From positions 1 to 37,349 of the IMG/VR virus record IMGVR_UViG_3300028326_000014: a stretch of 37,349 nt of DNA; one strand, written 5' to 3'. This DNA comes from a virus. Taxonomy: Duplodnaviria; Caudoviricetes. The notes under the pieces are model-generated. The model had not been told where the DNA came from. It made no database searches and saw nothing but the letters and a program-made list of their open reading frames with translations. Each line of letters starts with the position of its first letter. Position 1 is the stretch's first letter. Shown in pieces: positions 2,670 through 36,203 of this stretch. The translations under genes and the position numbers were made by a program.

Positions 2670-2673
2670 CCAT

Positions 2674-2735
2674 TGCGAAACCGCCCCGCGCGGGCGGTCG
2701 TCGGACGGTGGCGCGTCCGGCCTGATGAGCAGCCA
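2674..2735 (+). ncRNA. Type II hammerhead ribozyme, copy 1
   Basis: GAAA 2677-2680; stem III ACCGCCC/GGGCGGT; GTC cleavage triplet 2697-2699; stem I GTCGGACG/CGTCCGGC; CTGATGA 2722-2728; stem II TGC/GCA; loop I TGGC can pair with 3' GCCA (pseudoknot). Confidence 0.9.
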
Positions 2736-2745
2736 AGGAAAAAAC

Positions 2746-7229: not shown

Positions 7230-7232
7230 TCC

Positions 7233-7294
7233 TGCGAAACCGCCCCGCGCGGGCGGTCGTCGGACGGTGGCGCGTCCGGCCTGATGAGCAGCCA
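7233..7294 (+). ncRNA. Type II hammerhead ribozyme, copy 2
   Basis: Identical to copy 1 (67-bp exact repeat 2674-2740 / 7233-7299); GTC 7256-7258; CTGATGA 7281-7287. Confidence 0.9.
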
Positions 7295-7305
7295 AGGAAT
7301 CAACC

Positions 7306-7740
7306 ATGCGGATCTACATCGCCTCATCCTGGCGCAACCAGCACGCCGTGGAACTGCTCTCCGACCTCCTGGAGGACAACGGCCACACCGTGGTGTCCTG
7401 GATCGAGGAGTGGCGGCGGAATGAGGGGCCTGCCGTGTCCGTCCACCTGGATCAGGACGCCTGGATCGAGTCCCCGGCCGGCCATGCTCGGTTTCGCTTC
7501 GACCTCGACGGCGCTTGCCGCTCCGATCTTGTCATCTACCTCGGCCCTGCGGGCACGGACGCCTGGGCCGAGGTCGGCGCGGCCTTTGCCTGCGACGTGC
7601 CGGTAGTCGGCCTGTGGGCCAAGGGCGAGCGTGCCGGCCTCATGCGGCGGATGGTCTCCCGATGGTTCACGGATCACCGGGAATTGCTGCGATTTCTGGA
7701 GGAGGCCGGCGAGGCCGACGCCGAACGGCTAGCGGGGTAA
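7306..7740 (+). CDS. Nucleoside 2-deoxyribosyltransferase-like protein
   Basis: IYIASS, FDLDGACRSDLVI, GTDAWAEVGAAFA (catalytic-type Glu), PVVGL; SD AGGA. Confidence 0.7.
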   Translation: MRIYIASSWRNQHAVELLSDLLEDNGHTVVSWIEEWRRNEGPAVSVHLDQDAWIESPAGHARFRFDLDGACRSDLVIYLGPAGTDAWAEVGAAFACDVPVVGLWAKGERAGLMRRMVSRWFTDHRELLRFLEEAGEADAERLAG

Positions 7741-11287: not shown

Positions 11288-11341
11288 CCGTGCACCGATG
11301 TGCACGGATTGCTCCACATCTGCCCCCGCCGCCGCTAGATT
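11288..11341 (+). promoter_or_regulatory. Candidate activator-dependent late promoter (lysis operon)
   Basis: Palindrome CCGTGCAC-N4-GTGCACGG at 11288-11307, 28 nt, -10-like TAGATT, ATG 7 nt later; same geometry at 19245. Confidence 0.7.
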
Positions 11342-11348
11342 GGGCGGC

Positions 11349-11807
11349 ATGAAACGCACCCGATTCCCCCATCTGCTGCTCGCTGCCCTGCTCCTGCTCC
11401 AGGCCGTCGCCCCCGTGGCGGCCTGGAGCGAGGAGCACGTGTACCACGCCACCGTGGCCGCCGTGGTGGACCACGTCCACGACGGGGACACCATCACCGT
11501 GACCGTGCCCGGCTGGCCAGCCATCGTCTCGCCCGTCGAGGTGCGCGTGGCCGGCGTCGATGCGGCCGAAATCCACGACAAACGCCCGGAAATCAAAGCC
11601 ATGGGCCTGCTGGCCCGGGATTGGCTGGTCGAGCATCTGCGGTCAGGCGAACCCGTGACGCTCCGTAACGTGCGGCGCGACAAGTATTTCCGCCTTTTGG
11701 CCGACGTGGACGTGGTGGTGGACGGCGAGACGCGGGATCTGGCCGGCGAGTTGATCCGGCGCGGGCTGGCCAAGCCCTATGACGGGCAAGGGCCCAAGCC
11801 CTGGTAA
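11349..11807 (+). CDS. Secreted thermonuclease (SNase family)
   Basis: Signal peptide; VHDGDTI, VRVAGVDAAE, DKYFRLLA, LIRRGLA. Confidence 0.9.
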   Translation: MKRTRFPHLLLAALLLLQAVAPVAAWSEEHVYHATVAAVVDHVHDGDTITVTVPGWPAIVSPVEVRVAGVDAAEIHDKRPEIKAMGLLARDWLVEHLRSGEPVTLRNVRRDKYFRLLADVDVVVDGETRDLAGELIRRGLAKPYDGQGPKPW

Positions 11808-16000: not shown

Positions 16001-17538
16001 CGGACGGCATCTGGATCAACGACCGTGATTTTCTGGAGTTCGGCGACGCCTCGTCGTCCCTGCTCGGCGAGCTGGCCGTGCGGGACGACTGGACCACCTA
16101 TCTGGGCACGTTGCCCGATCCCGACCCCGTTTTGCGCAAGTCCGGCGAGGACGTGCGGGTGCTGGCCGATTTGTCCGCCGACTGGAAGGTCACATCGAGC
16201 ATCCAGGGCCGCAAGATCAAGACCCTCAACAAGCGGGACTACCACTTTACGCCCGGCCATGCCCAGGACGCCGAGCCCACGCCCGAGGCCACGCGGCTGT
16301 GCGACGAGCTGGTGGCCGACCTGGAGCGGGTCAACCTCTACAACGTCTTTTCCGGGGTGATCGATGCCCCGTACTATGGCTATACGCCGCTGGAAATCCT
16401 GTGGCGACCGGATGGCTCGGGCGGCCTGCGGCTCCAGGACCTGATCGCCAAACCCTGGAGCTGGTTTTGCTTCGACGGGAAAAACCGCCTGTGCTGGCGC
16501 GGCGAGACGGGCGTGACGGCCACGCCGGTGCCACCCGGTAAGTTCGTCCTGGTCCAGCATTTCCCGACCTACGACAATCCCTACGGTTTGCGGCTCTTGT
16601 CCAGATGTCTCTGGCCGGTCGCCTTCAAGCGCGCGGGGACCGAGTTCCTCATGCGCTTTGCCGAAAAATTCGGCCAGCCATGGGTCGTGGGCGAAGTACG
16701 GCCCACTGCCCAGCCGAACGAAATGCAGGACATGGCCACGGCACTGCGCGGCATGATCCACGACGCCGTGGCCGTCATCAAGGGCGGCGGCAAGGTGACG
16801 GTCCACGAGACCACGGGCAAGGCGGGGGACTTGCATCCGGCCATCATCGACCTGTTCGATGCGGCCATTGCCCAGCTCATCCAGGGCCAGACCCTGACCC
16901 AGCAGGTTGGCAAAAACGGCAGTTTTGCCGCCAGCAAGACGCATTACGACGTGCTCTCGGACTACGCCGCCGCCGACCAGACGCTCATCGAGACGGCCAT
17001 GACCGATCTGGCCTGGACCTACGGCCAGGTACGGGCGCCGGGCGTGCTGACGCCGGTTTTCGAGTTTATCAAGCCCGAGGATCAAAAATCCAAGGGCGAG
17101 GAGGCCACCACGCTCCACGGCGTGGGTGTGCGGTTTACACCGGTCTATTTCGAGCGCCGGTTCGGGTTGGCTCCGGACGAATTTACGGTCGTGGCGGACG
17201 CCGACGACCCAGACCAGGCCGGCGCTGCCGGGGAGTCCGACACCGCTCCGGCCTTTGCCGCGCCGACCGGCCAAGCCTCGCCGCATACGGCCGCCCAGCA
17301 GGCCGTTGAGGATCTGATCGCTCGGAGCCTACCGGCCGGCAAGGCGGCCTTGACGACGATGGCCAGCGAGATCCTGGACCTGGTGGCCAAGGCCGAGACG
17401 CCCGAGGACCTCGAATTGCTCTTAGCTGAAGCCTGCCCGGACCTGGGCGGCGACCTGGAAACGGCCCTGGAGGCGGGCTTGCTCGCCGCCGATCTGACCG
17501 GTCGCTATGCCGTCGTCAAAGGGCCGGATCGTGGCTAA
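15997..17538 (+). CDS. Portal protein (Mu gp29/DUF935-like)
   Basis: LPDPDPVL, DAPYYGY, NPYGLRLLS, FAEKFGQP, GQTLT, GSFAASKTH. Confidence 0.9.
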   Translation: MTDGIWINDRDFLEFGDASSSLLGELAVRDDWTTYLGTLPDPDPVLRKSGEDVRVLADLSADWKVTSSIQGRKIKTLNKRDYHFTPGHAQDAEPTPEATRLCDELVADLERVNLYNVFSGVIDAPYYGYTPLEILWRPDGSGGLRLQDLIAKPWSWFCFDGKNRLCWRGETGVTATPVPPGKFVLVQHFPTYDNPYGLRLLSRCLWPVAFKRAGTEFLMRFAEKFGQPWVVGEVRPTAQPNEMQDMATALRGMIHDAVAVIKGGGKVTVHETTGKAGDLHPAIIDLFDAAIAQLIQGQTLTQQVGKNGSFAASKTHYDVLSDYAAADQTLIETAMTDLAWTYGQVRAPGVLTPVFEFIKPEDQKSKGEEATTLHGVGVRFTPVYFERRFGLAPDEFTVVADADDPDQAGAAGESDTAPAFAAPTGQASPHTAAQQAVEDLIARSLPAGKAALTTMASEILDLVAKAETPEDLELLLAEACPDLGGDLETALEAGLLAADLTGRYAVVKGPDRG

Positions 17539-18826
17539 ACCACTGGTCGAGTCCAAGCCGCTCCCGCCCCGGGAGGCCATGGCCTTTTGGGCCGACAAGG
17601 TGCCGGTCACAAAAAGTGAGTGGAATACCTTATCTGATGCGGCCAAGGCCCGGGCCTTTGTCGTGGCCGGGCTGGCCAAGGGCGATCTGCTCGACGCGGT
17701 CCAGGCATCCCTGGGCGATGCCCTTGCCCAGGGTCAGACGCTGGCCCAATGGAAAAAGAGCGTGGCCGGCCAGGGCCTGGCCGGACTCGGGTTTACCGAC
17801 GTCCGACTGGAAACGATCTATCGGACCAACCTGCAATCCGCCTATCAGGCCGGCCGCTATGCCCAGATGCAACGGGTGGCCGATGATCGGCCATACTGGC
17901 GCTATACCGCCGTCAATGACTCCCGAACACGCCCGACCCACCGGGGCATGCACGGGCTCACGTACCCGGCGGATCATCCCTTCTGGGACACGTACTACCC
18001 ACCGAATGGGTATAGGTGCCGCTGTTCGGTGCAATCGCTGTCGGCCAGCCAGGTCGAGTCCCGGGGTATCGAGGTCCAATCCGAGATCCCGGAGATGGTC
18101 CACTACAAGGACCCGACCACGCATTTCGAGACCGAGACGCCACTGCATCCGGACCAGGGATGGGCCGGCAACGTCGGCAAGGACTGGTTTGCCGGACTCT
18201 CGCCCGAGGAGCTGGACGAGGTCATTCATCCCCTGGTCACGCGGGCGGTGTGCCGGGACGGCGGCGGCCCGGCCTTTGCCGCCTCGGGCGACGTCTGCCG
18301 GCCGCCCCTGGCCAGCCTCGACGCCAGGCACGTGCTGCCCGTGGCCGAGGGGGACATCCTGCCGGAGGGGCTCACCCCCGAGACCTACGTCAAGGCGTTT
18401 TTGGCGGAGTTCGGGCTCAAGGGGTTGGACGGGTCGAAGGTGATCACACTGCCGGGCGTTGCGTTGCCGGTTGTGGTGAACAAAGGATTTTTCTGGGACA
18501 AGCGCCTCAACGAGTGGAAGGCCACGAAATACGGGCGTGCCCCCTATGTGCGACTCCTGGCCAGGACGCTGCTCGATCCCTATGAAATCTGGAGTGTCCC
18601 GGCCGAAGTGGCGAAAAGACCCATGAACGTCTTGCGTTTGATCCGGCTGTTCGCCACACCGCAAAAACAGGTGGGGGGCTTCGTCGTTTTCAACCTGGTG
18701 CGCCAACGCCAGTGGCAGGCGGCCACCGCCTTCACGCCCAAGGTGCTAAAAACACCGCTTGAAATGCTGGAATATTTGGAAAAGCAACGCGTTGGAACGC
18801 TGTTGTATCGTGAGGAAAAGCCATGA
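17531..18826 (+). CDS. MuF minor head protein with C-terminal PBECR2-like nuclease domain
   Basis: RLETIYRTN, DSRTRPTH, FWDTYYPPNGYRCRC; extension LLDPYEIW...WQAATAF...YLEKQRVGTLLYR. GTG start at 17531. Confidence 0.85.
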   Translation: MAKPLVESKPLPPREAMAFWADKVPVTKSEWNTLSDAAKARAFVVAGLAKGDLLDAVQASLGDALAQGQTLAQWKKSVAGQGLAGLGFTDVRLETIYRTNLQSAYQAGRYAQMQRVADDRPYWRYTAVNDSRTRPTHRGMHGLTYPADHPFWDTYYPPNGYRCRCSVQSLSASQVESRGIEVQSEIPEMVHYKDPTTHFETETPLHPDQGWAGNVGKDWFAGLSPEELDEVIHPLVTRAVCRDGGGPAFAASGDVCRPPLASLDARHVLPVAEGDILPEGLTPETYVKAFLAEFGLKGLDGSKVITLPGVALPVVVNKGFFWDKRLNEWKATKYGRAPYVRLLARTLLDPYEIWSVPAEVAKRPMNVLRLIRLFATPQKQVGGFVVFNLVRQRQWQAATAFTPKVLKTPLEMLEYLEKQRVGTLLYREEKP

Positions 18827-18830
18827 AGTA

Positions 18831-19020
18831 TCGCGAGAGACTTCGGTAGGACCGGCTCCGAAGTCAGACGCGCGGCCTACTTATCCCCCCGGCCGGGGGT
18901 CGGCCGCTACGCCTGGGTCTCGCGAGTGAAGCATCTGGCCGTCCCTGGCCGGCCAGACCGGCGGGCCCTTGTTTGCGACCCCCGCCAGGGCGAGGTTCAG
19001 GTACGCCGCCGTTGCTTCGT
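18831..19020 (-). ncRNA. Candidate structured ncRNA with two multibranch, tRNA-like domains, convergent with MuF
   Basis: Seven stems predicted by eye; minus-strand promoter TTGACC(19054-19049)-16-TATATA. Confidence 0.6.
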
Positions 19021-19072
19021 ACATCATATATAGAGCCGGAGCGCGTCCGGTCAAGCGCCTCGGTGAGATCGT

Positions 19073-19178
19073 TTGAGACCGCCTTAGACCTATCGAACTT
19101 TCATCTCTCCCCCTCGGCCTTATTGGCAGCTGCCGCACCGTGCGGGCAGCCGCGCGTCTTAGACCTATTTTAGACCTA
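19073..19178. repeat. Phased TTAGACCTA repeats near the genome centre
   Basis: Copies at 19084-19092, 19159-19167 and 19170-19178, plus a degenerate copy at about 19073. Confidence 0.6.
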
Positions 19179-19244
19179 GGATTCTACCAGGATTATCCCA
19201 CCCATCCCCTCAATCGCGGACCAACGTCCCCGGACGCGCAAAAA

Positions 19245-19298
19245 CCGTGCACAGGCGTGCATGGCCGCATGGTCCGCTCCCCACCTCCCGGGCATAGT
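19245..19298 (+). promoter_or_regulatory. Candidate activator-dependent late promoter (head/tail operon)
   Basis: CCGTGCAC-N4-GTGCATGG at 19245-19264, 28 nt, CATAGT, ATG 6 nt later. Confidence 0.7.
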
Positions 19299-19304
19299 CG
19301 CCTC

Positions 19305-20213
19305 ATGAATCTCACCCATTGGATCGAGTGCGCCAGGACCGGGCGCTGGACAGCCATGAACGGCCAGCCGGTGGATCTGACCTCGGCTGACCTCGACCGC
19401 ATCGCGGCCGGGTTCAAGCCCGACGATCCGGACGGCTCGCCGCTGGTGCTCGGGCATCCGCACACGGACGATCCGGCTTACGGCTGGGCTGCCGGCGTGC
19501 GGCGGGATGGCGACCGGCTGTTGGTGCAATTCCGGGACGTGCCGGACACCGTCCGCAATCTGGTGGACTCCGGCCGCTACCGCAACGTCTCGGTCAAGCT
19601 GTCTCCAGACAAAAGCCGGTTGATCCATGTGGGCCTTTTAGGGGCCGTGCCCCCGGCCATCACCGGGCTAGCCCCGGTCAAACTTTCGGCCGGCGGCGAC
19701 GACGGCCCGACCATCGAATTTTCGGGAGGAACCATGAACGAGGTTGAACAGCTCAAGGCGCAAATTGCCCAGCTCAAGGCCCAGTTGGCCGGCGGTGCGG
19801 ACAAGGACCGCATCAAGGCCCTGGAAGACGAGTTGGCCAAGACCAAGGATGCCCTGGCCCAGGCCACGGGCAAAACCCAGGAAACCGAGCAGGCCTTCGC
19901 CAGCTACCGCGCGGCCGAGACTGACAAGGCCCGGGAAACCCGGTTTGCCGGGCTGGTGGCGGCGGACAAGATCCTGCCCGGCGAGAAGGCCAAGGTGCTG
20001 GCCTTTGCCACGGCTTTGGGCGCAGCGACGGGCGAAATCGAATTTGCCGCCCCGGACGGGCAGGTCGTGAAGGTGTCCCAGGAAGAGGCCTACTGGCGCG
20101 ACCTGGAGACCCGGCAGCCGCAAGGCCTGCTGACCGAATTCGCCGCGCCCGGCATGACCAACCAGATCCAGAGCTCCGGCAAGATCCCCGGCGATCTGGC
20201 CAAGCACGTGTAA
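19305..20213 (+). CDS. Prohead protease (Mu gpI-like) with nested in-frame scaffold starting at 19734
   Basis: PLVLGHP, PAYGW, GRYRNVSVKL, HVGLLGAVPPAI; internal GGAGG-N4-ATG at 19734 precedes a coiled coil. Confidence 0.88.
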   Translation: MNLTHWIECARTGRWTAMNGQPVDLTSADLDRIAAGFKPDDPDGSPLVLGHPHTDDPAYGWAAGVRRDGDRLLVQFRDVPDTVRNLVDSGRYRNVSVKLSPDKSRLIHVGLLGAVPPAITGLAPVKLSAGGDDGPTIEFSGGTMNEVEQLKAQIAQLKAQLAGGADKDRIKALEDELAKTKDALAQATGKTQETEQAFASYRAAETDKARETRFAGLVAADKILPGEKAKVLAFATALGAATGEIEFAAPDGQVVKVSQEEAYWRDLETRQPQGLLTEFAAPGMTNQIQSSGKIPGDLAKHV

Positions 20214-34839: not shown

Positions 34840-35247
34840 ATGCGTTATGCTATTGTTGCTGATGGGGTGGTCGTTAATATTGTCGAGGGTAGCGAGTCAT
34901 GTGCCCTGTTGTTGCCGGCTGGGCACAAGGCGATTACGGCCCTCGACACGTCCAGTATCGGCGACGCGCTGCTTGCCGATGGGACGTTGCCTCCGGCTGT
35001 TACGGCTGATCTTCCACAGCCCACCGACAAGGATTACGCCCGAGCTATCCGGGTTCAACGTGACAGGCGCCTGGCTGCGTGCGATTGGACGCAGCTTGCC
35101 GACTCGCCGCTATCTGCTGAGGCGAAGGCGGCCTGGGTAACCTACAGACAAGCCCTGCGGGATATCACGGCACGGGACGGATTCCCGTGGGGCGGCGACG
35201 CGTCGGCCGTGTCCTGGCCAGAGGCCCCGGAGACCACCGCATCATGA
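34840..35247 (+). CDS. Tail fibre assembly chaperone
   Basis: RDRRLAACDWTQLADSPL, WVTYRQALRDI, WPEAP. Confidence 0.88.
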   Translation: MRYAIVADGVVVNIVEGSESCALLLPAGHKAITALDTSSIGDALLADGTLPPAVTADLPQPTDKDYARAIRVQRDRRLAACDWTQLADSPLSAEAKAAWVTYRQALRDITARDGFPWGGDASAVSWPEAPETTAS

Positions 35248-36203
35248 CGCGTATCTTATCTATTGATGGTGGCGGCATCCTGGGGCTGATCCCGGCTATG
35301 GTTTTGGCCGAGATCGAGGCCCGGGCCGGACGGCCGGCTGCCGAGTTGTTCGACCTGGTCGCCGGCACCAGCACGGGCGGTATCATCGCCTGCGCCGTGG
35401 CGGCAGGCATCCCGGCCAATACGGTGGCCGACCTCTATCGCAAGCGCGGCAAGGACATTTTTGCCCGACATTTAAGGCATCGCCTGTTCACAGGGTTTGG
35501 CCTGTGGGGCCCGCAGTACGCGGCATCCGGCATTGAGGCCGCCCTGGCCGATGTGTTCCAAGGTGCCAAGCTCTCGGACTGCACCACGGACCTGCTCGTG
35601 CCGGCCTACGACATCGAGGCCAGGACGCCGGTCCTGTTCAAGTCAGCCAAGGCGAGGTGGAACGGGGTAGTTGGAGTTGAGGCCTATCACGCCCGCTCGC
35701 GCGACTACTACCTGCGCGACGTGGCCCGGGCCACGTCCGCAGCGCCGACCTATTTCCCGCCGGCACGCATCACGTCTCTGGCCGGTGAGGTCGTCACGGC
35801 CGTGGACGGTGGACTTTTCGCCAACAATCCGGCCGCCTGCGCCCTGGCCCAGGTGGCCAAGGCCAGCCGGATGTACGGTGCCGCCATGGTGTCGCTCGGC
35901 ACCGGCTCGCGCGAGCAGCCATACCTCTACGGCGCGGCCCGGCGCTGGGGCCTGGCCCGCTGGGCGCGGCCCTTACTCGACTGCATGTTCGACGGCCAAA
36001 GCGATACGGCCGGCCATCAGTGCCAGGCACTGCTGCGGGATCGATATTTCCGGCTCCAGCCAGCGCTGCCCGGCGACCTGCCTATGGACGACGCAGGGCC
36101 CAAGGCCGTCGAGATCCTGGAGTCGGTGGCCCGGGGACTGGTCGCCGAGCAGGATGAGCTGATCGACAAGATCTGTGCAATGACGCTGCCCAAGGCGGCG
36201 TAA
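35244..36203 (+). CDS. Patatin-like phospholipase
   Basis: ILSIDGGG, FDLVAGTSTGG, ATSAAPTYF, VDGGLFANNP, VSLGTG; ATGA coupling to the upstream gene. Confidence 0.92.
   Translation: MTRILSIDGGGILGLIPAMVLAEIEARAGRPAAELFDLVAGTSTGGIIACAVAAGIPANTVADLYRKRGKDIFARHLRHRLFTGFGLWGPQYAASGIEAALADVFQGAKLSDCTTDLLVPAYDIEARTPVLFKSAKARWNGVVGVEAYHARSRDYYLRDVARATSAAPTYFPPARITSLAGEVVTAVDGGLFANNPAACALAQVAKASRMYGAAMVSLGTGSREQPYLYGAARRWGLARWARPLLDCMFDGQSDTAGHQCQALLRDRYFRLQPALPGDLPMDDAGPKAVEILESVARGLVAEQDELIDKICAMTLPKAA

What the first reader, a model, noticed from the sequence alone, without database searches (positions are those of the whole stretch)
18300..19054. MuF-PBECR nuclease followed by a convergently transcribed tandem tRNA-like RNA instead of an immunity gene
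Seen: no plausible protein gene follows the MuF stop (18826). Domain A (18928-19018) has closing stem GAAGCA/TGCTTC, a 4-bp arm (18989-92/19004-07), a 6-bp arm (18960-65/18981-86) and an 8-bp arm (18934-41/18950-57). On the minus strand the 8-bp arm stacks on the closing stem like a T-arm. Domain B (18831-18925) has closing TCGCGAGA/TCTCGCGA, a stacked GACTTCGG/CCGAAGTC arm and a GCGGCC/GGCCGC arm. A minus-strand TTGACC-16-TATATA would start transcription near 19020, at the edge of domain A. Known: PBECR domains are predicted Barnase/EndoU/colicin E5-D/RelE-fold RNases fused to MuF head proteins. Inference: the RNA is an antitoxin, decoy or substrate for a virion-delivered RNase, making a protein-RNA toxin/antitoxin-like pair.
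Basis: partly seen in the sequence, partly recalled or inferred. Interest (0 to 1): 0.82.

Follow-up and report, generated by a model that had tools for sequence, protein, structure and literature searches.

The report
Kissing-loop RNA partner of phage RNase
Where other phages put a protein antidote gene after their head-packed toxin, this Mu-like phage and many relatives carry a conserved, uncatalogued folded RNA on the opposite strand, which likely binds and disarms the predicted RNA-cutting domain of the head protein.

Summary
Real and conserved, but not tRNA-like. The MuF gene ends in a PBECR2 domain. It is followed by two tandem ~92-nt units on the minus strand behind a sigma70-type promoter. 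Each unit is a long arm plus a hairpin whose loops pair with each other. That kissing helix covaries (6 of 6 pairs in subfamily A; cognate loops give >=6 bp in 27 of 51, non-cognate pairs 9.7%).

The RNA follows the PBECR2 domain. It was called at 86 of 109 loci with intact predicted active-site residues, 1 of 11 degenerate ones (about six lineages) and 5 of 88 MuF genes without PBECR2. MuF tails that are ADP-ribosyltransferases or amidases have small ORFs in this slot; a PBECR3-like tail has a different conserved antisense RNA. No Rfam match; no paper found; this scan had not noted it before.

Best reading (about 50%): an RNA immunity factor for a virion-borne RNase. Expression, binding and nuclease activity are untested.

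The parts
17507..18826 (+). muF-PBECR2 gene (minor head protein with C-terminal predicted RNase). ORF from ATG 17507; residue numbers used here count from GTG 17531 (P0001)
   Evidence: phrog_220 minor head protein
18395..18811 (+). PBECR2 domain, residues 289-427. Conserved K330 (18518), K333, R/H336 (18536, start of the N-terminal helix) and T/S399 (18725, last core strand)
19025..19054 (-). predicted sigma70-type promoter: -35 TTGACC 19054-19049, -10 within 19032-19025; start near 19020
   Evidence: sequence; conserved strand-specifically in relatives; transcription not shown
18928..19018 (-). RNA unit A: closing stem P1, long arm P2 (stem, GUA bulge, stem, asymmetric internal loop, apical hairpin), hairpin P3 (18958-18933)
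18985..18990 (-). unit A apical loop L2 (CCCUGG), kissing partner of L3
   Evidence: helix 3
18943..18948 (-). unit A loop L3 (CCAGGG), kissing partner of L2
   Evidence: helix 3
18831..18925 (-). RNA unit B, same architecture, different subfamily; GA / AGUA internal loop resembling a bulged-G (loop E) core
   Evidence: (model of unit A finds unit B, E 0.009)
18889..18894 (-). unit B apical loop L2 (GGCCGG)
   Evidence: helix 4
18850..18855 (-). unit B loop L3 (CCGGUC), 6-bp kiss with one G-U
   Evidence: helix 4

Best explanation
A conserved antisense element with a covarying kissing-loop fold sits directly behind MuF-PBECR2, and it likely acts as an RNA immunity factor that binds and blocks this predicted RNase domain. 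Shown: the fold, the strand-specific promoter signal, the restriction to PBECR-tailed MuF, and co-loss with the domain's conserved basic and hydroxyl residues. Inferred: (1) the RNA is made from its own promoter on the repressor strand, so it would be present in the lysogen before late genes are on; (2) it folds by an intramolecular L2-L3 kiss into a compact shape whose loop sequences are free to drift, as expected of a protein ligand rather than a base-pairing guide; (3) it would occupy the basic K330/K333/R336/T399 surface, protecting the producing cell while MuF is made and packed; (4) MuF would carry the RNA-free domain into the next cell with the DNA, where a lysogen holding a cognate RNA would be immune. 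The two different units in this phage would widen that protection, like stacked immunity cassettes.
For: Kissing helix: 6 of 6 pairs compensatory, 90.7% paired in 18 subfamily-A units; 3 of 6, 93.9% in 9 subfamily-B units. Kiss-blind parsing then cognate vs swapped loops: 27 of 51 vs 9.7% reach 6 bp, 0 of 20,000 permutations. Blind descriptor: 37 of 106 PBECR2 loci, 3 of 106 plus strand, 7 of 106 shuffled, 2 of 42 other tails, 0 of 46 short MuF. RNA called in 86 of 109 intact vs 1 of 11 degenerate domains; in loci fetched later, 11 of 12 vs 0 of 2. The degenerate RNA-less loci fall in about six separate lineages, each with an RNA-bearing sister. L072 is 63% identical to L056 and has lost K330, K333, R336 and T399. 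Phage Mu, whose PBECR domain is called inactive (PMC5512222, section read), has gpF overlapping gpG with no room for an RNA. Same slot: small conserved ORFs follow ART and amidase tails in the 8 loci translated, matching the immunity-ORF rule in PMC5576092 (passages). The RNA is kept whether the next gene is gpG (58 of 120) or the protease (43 of 120).
Against: No expression, binding, toxicity or nuclease data. Two loci keep all four residues yet lack the RNA: L214 (deletion against sister L028) and L088 (antisense TIR gene in the slot). 23 of 109 intact loci were not called; by eye most carry divergent or different elements, but that is unmeasured. The three covariance models were trained on intact loci and the residue rule was chosen after seeing the data. 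The structure match to colicin E5/D tRNases is weak (Z 3.9, rmsd 3.6-3.7, 85 aligned, ranks 46 and 50). Co-loss is also predicted by a protein-RNA partnership with another job or by antisense silencing. A plain folding z-score separates the groups only weakly (58 of 109 vs 3 of 11, controls 23 of 88). Close protein relatives carry unit A, unit B or both, so pairing is not one-to-one.
Confidence: 0.5

Rival explanations
1. The RNA is the payload or cofactor: PBECR2 binds or trims it and MuF carries the protein-RNA complex into the new host, where the RNA acts as a decoy for host defence nucleases or steers the domain.
For: Co-loss with the basic surface fits equally. R rather than H stands at 336 in 66 of 106 domains. 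[quoted passage not shown] Losses run both ways (L214, L088; frameshifted L089 keeps its RNA).
Against: The RNA sits exactly where immunity ORFs sit for other MuF tails. No variable single-stranded guide-like segment is seen; the variable loops pair with each other.
Confidence: 0.2
2. Cis-antisense control (type I-like, as recalled for RatA/txpA and SR4/bsrG): the convergent transcript pairs with the 3' end of the late muF message or blocks leaky read-through, keeping the toxin off in the lysogen.
For: Convergent orientation, own promoter; in several loci the last hairpin overlaps the muF stop codon (negative distances); explains co-loss with toxicity.
Against: Antisense pairing does not need a covarying L2-L3 kiss or conserved internal-loop letters. 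The window's units end 5 nt short of the stop. Family members also lie 300-900 nt away behind insertions (L198, L195). Non-PBECR toxic tails lack this RNA family.
Confidence: 0.15
3. Prohead/packaging RNA in the manner of phi29 pRNA (recalled): complementary loops link copies into a ring at the portal.
For: Three-way junction with two complementary loops; lies in the portal-MuF-protease cluster.
Against: Absent from 46 short-MuF loci and from Mu; tracks the PBECR2 tail and its active-site residues rather than the head module.
Confidence: 0.05
4. Terminator or spacer hairpins with no RNA product of their own.
For: P3 is followed by a U run in some loci (36 of 106 have a minus-strand T4 near the stop).
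Against: That U-run rate is no higher than in short-MuF controls (18 of 46). Terminators do not explain a four-helix covarying fold, a kiss or an upstream promoter.
Confidence: 0.04

Closest known systems
Type III toxin-antitoxin systems (ToxIN, CptIN, TenpIN; PMC12283969, passages read)
   Same: Pseudoknotted RNA paired with a (here predicted) endoribonuclease; can occur as two non-identical tandem units.
   Different: Those RNAs are short repeats upstream of the toxin in one operon, separated by a terminator, with H-type pseudoknots. This RNA is downstream, antisense, has its own promoter, is ~90 nt with a loop-loop kiss, and its partner is a virion-protein fusion.
MuF polymorphic toxins with immunity ORFs (Jamet 2017, PMC5576092, passages read)
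   Same: MuF plus C-terminal effector in a temperate phage head module; something dedicated sits directly downstream.
   Different: There the downstream element is a small protein gene (89.4% of 191 toxin genes); here it is a non-coding RNA on the other strand.
PBECR domains (Iyer 2017, PMC5512222, section 19 read whole plus passages)
   Same: The protein is a PBECR2 member fused to MuF, with Arg/His at the N-terminal helix and Thr/Ser in the last strand.
   Different: The parts read propose mRNA or crRNA targets and mention no encoded RNA partner.
DUF3800, drum and skipping-rope RNA motifs (Weinberg 2017, PMC5737381, passages read)
   Same: Several dissimilar structured RNAs tied to one protein domain, on either strand, function unknown.
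   Different: Different protein; no Rfam model matches this RNA.
Lysine riboswitch P2/P3 scaffold (architecture recalled; loop E presence from PMC2919703)
   Same: Long arm with a loop-E-like module whose tip kisses the loop of the adjacent hairpin.
   Different: No five-way junction, no expression platform, not in a 5' leader, no Rfam hit.

Membership tests
tRNA / tRNA-like structure | cloverleaf with D, anticodon and T arms | tested here: not met
   ARAGORN 0 in window and 22 loci; covariation supports a two-arm junction
tRNA / tRNA-like structure | T-loop consensus GTTCRA | tested here: not met
   0 of 63 aligned units in four subfamilies
Type III toxin-antitoxin | antitoxin repeats upstream of the toxin in one operon, terminator between | tested here: not met
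   RNA is downstream and antisense; definition from PMC12283969
Type III toxin-antitoxin | pseudoknotted RNA | tested here: met
   loop-loop pseudoknot with compensatory changes, though not H-type
Type III toxin-antitoxin | RNA binds and neutralises the toxin protein | not testable with these tools
   needs binding and rescue assays
PBECR2 (PF18810) | profile match above the curated cut-off | tested here: met
   78.7 bits vs 27.1; ESM Atlas top hits PBECR2
BECR-fold RNase | N-terminal helix plus 4-5 strands with His/Arg in the helix and Ser/Thr in strand 4 | tested here: met
   model pLDDT 91, helix 61-72 then four strands; R/H/K336 in 103 of 106, T/S399 in 98 of 106
BECR-fold RNase | structural match to a solved BECR RNase | tested here: inconclusive
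   colicin E5 (3ao9) and colicin D (5znm) Z 3.9, rmsd 3.6-3.7, 85 aligned; no significant Foldseek hit
BECR-fold RNase | RNA cleavage | not testable with these tools
   no assay; activity is a prediction in the papers read
MuF toxin-immunity module | small immunity ORF directly downstream | tested here: not met
   slot holds the RNA; crude count of any >=50-codon ORF starting at the stop: 22 of 106 PBECR2 vs 26 of 42 other tails
Catalogued Rfam families (incl. lysine riboswitch, DUF3800 motifs) | score above gathering threshold | tested here: not met
   no hit at the element in the window or in the two 20-locus scans
phi29-type pRNA | required part of the packaging motor, intermolecular loop pairing | tested here: inconclusive
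   absent from PBECR-less head modules; oligomer state not testable

The most novel reading that the evidence does not exclude
PBECR domains are a whole class of phage ribonucleoproteins: each PBECR subfamily has its own antisense structured RNA (kissing-loop families for PBECR2, an unrelated multibranch family for a PBECR3-like tail), and the RNA is packed into the virion with MuF and injected as an rRNA-motif decoy or cofactor that works against host RNA-cutting defences.
Probability: 0.2. Interest if true: 0.93.

Novelty: new variant of a known kind. Interest (0 to 1): 0.8.

Why it matters
PBECR domains occur in up to 26% of phage polyvalent proteins and on MuF head proteins, yet their targets and control are unknown (PMC5512222). 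A dedicated, covarying RNA partner gives the first concrete ligand to test. It would be an RNA immunity factor for a virion-delivered polymorphic toxin, a combination I found in no paper. The pairing recurs with a second PBECR family and a different RNA, so it looks like a general rule. It is present in phages with cultured hosts (RcapMu of Rhodobacter capsulatus, RR1-B), so it can be tested directly.

Tried and rejected
Expression: no RNA holder listed for window 17500-19400; no reads were laid.

Cloverleaf fold: rejected. Protein-coding reading of the element: rejected for lack of any family hit or visible conservation. 5' leader of the next gene: rejected, the next gene varies and the strand is opposite. 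U-tract terminator as a marker: not discriminating. Folding z-score as an RNA call: too weak.

Subfamily C pair count was hurt by a poor alignment that held two chance hits (kiss 70.5% paired, 2 of 5 compensatory, P2a 54%). Models R2 and R3 lack the long arm or much of it. Foldseek and PDB sequence search gave nothing significant.

Whether the RNA follows PBECR2 outside MuF was not settled: the long homologues checked were MuF, intein-MuF or portal-MuF fusions except P0161 and P0195, and the P0161 scan returned one locus without the domain.

Literature searches that found no description of this RNA: PBECR+RNA, MuF+noncoding RNA+phage, RNA antitoxin+kissing loop+prophage+nuclease, phage head morphogenesis+structured RNA+covariation, RcapMu+RNA, MuF+toxin+immunity+ribonuclease, type III+virion, BECR+ncRNA (112, swamped by unrelated papers). 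The library lacks most subscription papers. No supplements were read; those of PMC5512222, PMC5737381 and the BECR preprint could bear on novelty. Six look-ups in this scan's earlier findings gave nothing related. R-scape was not available.

Full report
Context. The window is a Mu-like transposable phage: minus-strand repressor, transposase, portal, MuF, protease, capsid and tail genes. The closest MuF homologues are from Solidesulfovibrio/Desulfovibrio prophages. The MuF gene ends at 18826 in a PBECR2 domain. The protease gene has its ATG at 19305. In between, 18831-19018 folds on the minus strand into two units behind TTGACC at 19054. Rfam and ARAGORN see nothing there.

Related loci. Scans gave 241 MuF loci. 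After dropping duplicates and loci with under 220 nt downstream, 106 had PBECR2, 42 another tail and 46 no tail. L001 is 99% identical to the window and stood in for it in scripts. A minus-strand sigma70-like promoter recurs downstream of the PBECR2 stop: 40 of 82 vs 4 of 82 on the plus strand by a strict pattern, mostly 75-100 nt from the stop, and 68 of 106 vs 1 of 106 by a weighted score. Controls gave 15 of 42 and 5 of 46 on the minus strand.

The fold. Each unit has an optional closing stem, a long arm (stem, bulge, stem, asymmetric loop, apical hairpin) and an adjacent hairpin of about 9 bp. The apical loop is complementary to the hairpin loop. In 18 subfamily-A units 24 of 31 pairs show two-sided changes, including all 6 kissing pairs; sliding the register drops pairing from 92.6% to 34-57%. 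In 9 subfamily-B units the kiss is 93.9% paired with 3 of 6 compensatory. Subfamily C was weaker on a poor alignment. To avoid circularity I parsed two-arm units without using the kiss (63 of 106 PBECR2 loci, 4 of 42 and 2 of 46 controls) and swapped loops between 51 distinct units: cognate pairs reach 6 bp in 27 of 51, non-cognate in 9.7%, and 0 of 20,000 permutations matched. Related sequences inflate such tests, but the kiss words differ widely between clades. A model built from unit-A types also finds the window's unit B (E 0.009) and other B types, so the tandem is two versions of one element. Relatives have A only (L002), B only (L004, L013) or both (L003, L084). GUA and GA letters recur in the internal loops, like the loop E core (PMC2919703, passages); this is read from sequence only. 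Whether the kiss is within one molecule is inferred from each tandem unit matching its own loop.

Link to the protein. The blind descriptor scored 37 of 106 PBECR2 loci, against 3 (plus strand), 7 (shuffled), 2 of 42 and 0 of 46. The domain conserves K330, K333, R/H336 and T/S399, placed at the N-terminal helix and last core strand in a confident model, which is where PMC5512222 (section 19) puts BECR active sites. The fold match to colicin E5/D is weak. Calling RNA by any of three covariance models, the descriptor or the unit parser gave 86 of 109 loci with K/H330 and T/S399 and 1 of 11 without; the one is frameshifted L089. The rule was set after seeing the first loci, but it held in 14 distinct loci fetched afterwards (11 of 12 and 0 of 2). 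The 10 degenerate RNA-less loci form about six lineages with RNA-bearing sisters. Mu itself, with a domain described as inactive, has no intergenic space. Against: L214 and L088 keep the residues but lack the RNA, and 23 intact loci were not called.

The slot. ART- and amidase-tailed MuF genes are followed within 3-14 nt by conserved small ORFs in the 8 loci translated, as PMC5576092 (passages) reports for MuF immunity genes. A PBECR3-like tail (hhalign 93% to a PF18812 member) is followed by a different conserved antisense RNA: strict motif in 27 of 32 distinct loci, promoter 23 of 32 minus vs 0 of 32 plus, 10 of 19 predicted pairs compensatory in the 16 aligned. So RNA in the immunity slot is a feature of PBECR tails, with at least two unrelated folds.

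Mechanism. The most economical reading is a protein-binding RNA inhibitor made constitutively from the repressor strand, guarding the producer and perhaps the lysogen against a virion-borne RNase (0.5). A co-packaged RNA cargo or cofactor (0.2) and cis-antisense silencing (0.15) fit the co-loss too; a packaging RNA (0.05) and bare terminators (0.04) fit poorly. Nothing here shows transcription, binding or cleavage.

Comparison and novelty. It would work like a type III antitoxin but fails that class's operon layout; it sits like a MuF immunity gene but is RNA; it echoes the DUF3800-linked motifs (PMC5737381, passages) without matching them. The BECR preprint (10.64898/2026.08.28.747851, passages) has no occurrence of 'noncoding' or 'ncRNA'. 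PMC9936078 (passages) was not relevant. Eight searches found no description; coverage is limited and no supplements were read. The lysine riboswitch scaffold, phi29 pRNA and RatA/SR4 comparisons are recalled. Verdict: a new RNA family tied to PBECR domains; new variant of a known kind; interest 0.8.

Noticed in passing
window 2673-2738 and 7232-7297 (+): Two near-identical type II hammerhead ribozymes (RF02276, E about 3e-11) in intergenic gaps of the early operon, each right after a stop codon and before the next gene.
   Followed up: no
window 19084-19178 (+): Three copies of TTAGACCTA upstream of the protease gene, also seen by eye in L002-L004; likely binding sites for a late-promoter activator.
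   Followed up: no
L262-L299, L042, L052, L109, L129, L207 (downstream of MuF stop, minus strand): A second, highly conserved uncatalogued RNA family behind a PBECR3-like MuF tail, with covarying stems and a probable long-range UCUCCC/GGGAG pairing.
   Followed up: partly
L203 and L229, first 40 nt after the MuF stop, minus strand: Antisense elements with a real T-arm-like GUUCGA loop; L229's tail is PBECR3. Truly tRNA-like partners may exist for other PBECR tails.
   Followed up: no
L035, L062, L179, L195, L197 after the stop: A divergent PBECR2 clade with yet another shared structured element, not matched by the three models.
   Followed up: no
L088 2760-3725 (-); L195 3112-3784 (-); L198 3083-3179 (-): The slot takes antisense insertions: a TIR-domain gene in L088; in L195 a subfamily-A RNA lies 5' of an inserted antisense gene 900 nt from the stop; in L198 the RNA is displaced by 300 nt.
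   Followed up: partly
P0066, P0072, P0086, P0090; P0075, P0111, P0142; P0195: PBECR2 homologues with inteins in MuF, portal-MuF-PBECR2 fusions, and a PBECR2-pyrophosphatase polyvalent protein.
   Followed up: no
window 35187-36203, 11298-11807, 7306-7740: Patatin-like phospholipase, staphylococcal-nuclease-like and nucleoside deoxyribosyltransferase-like accessory genes.
   Followed up: no
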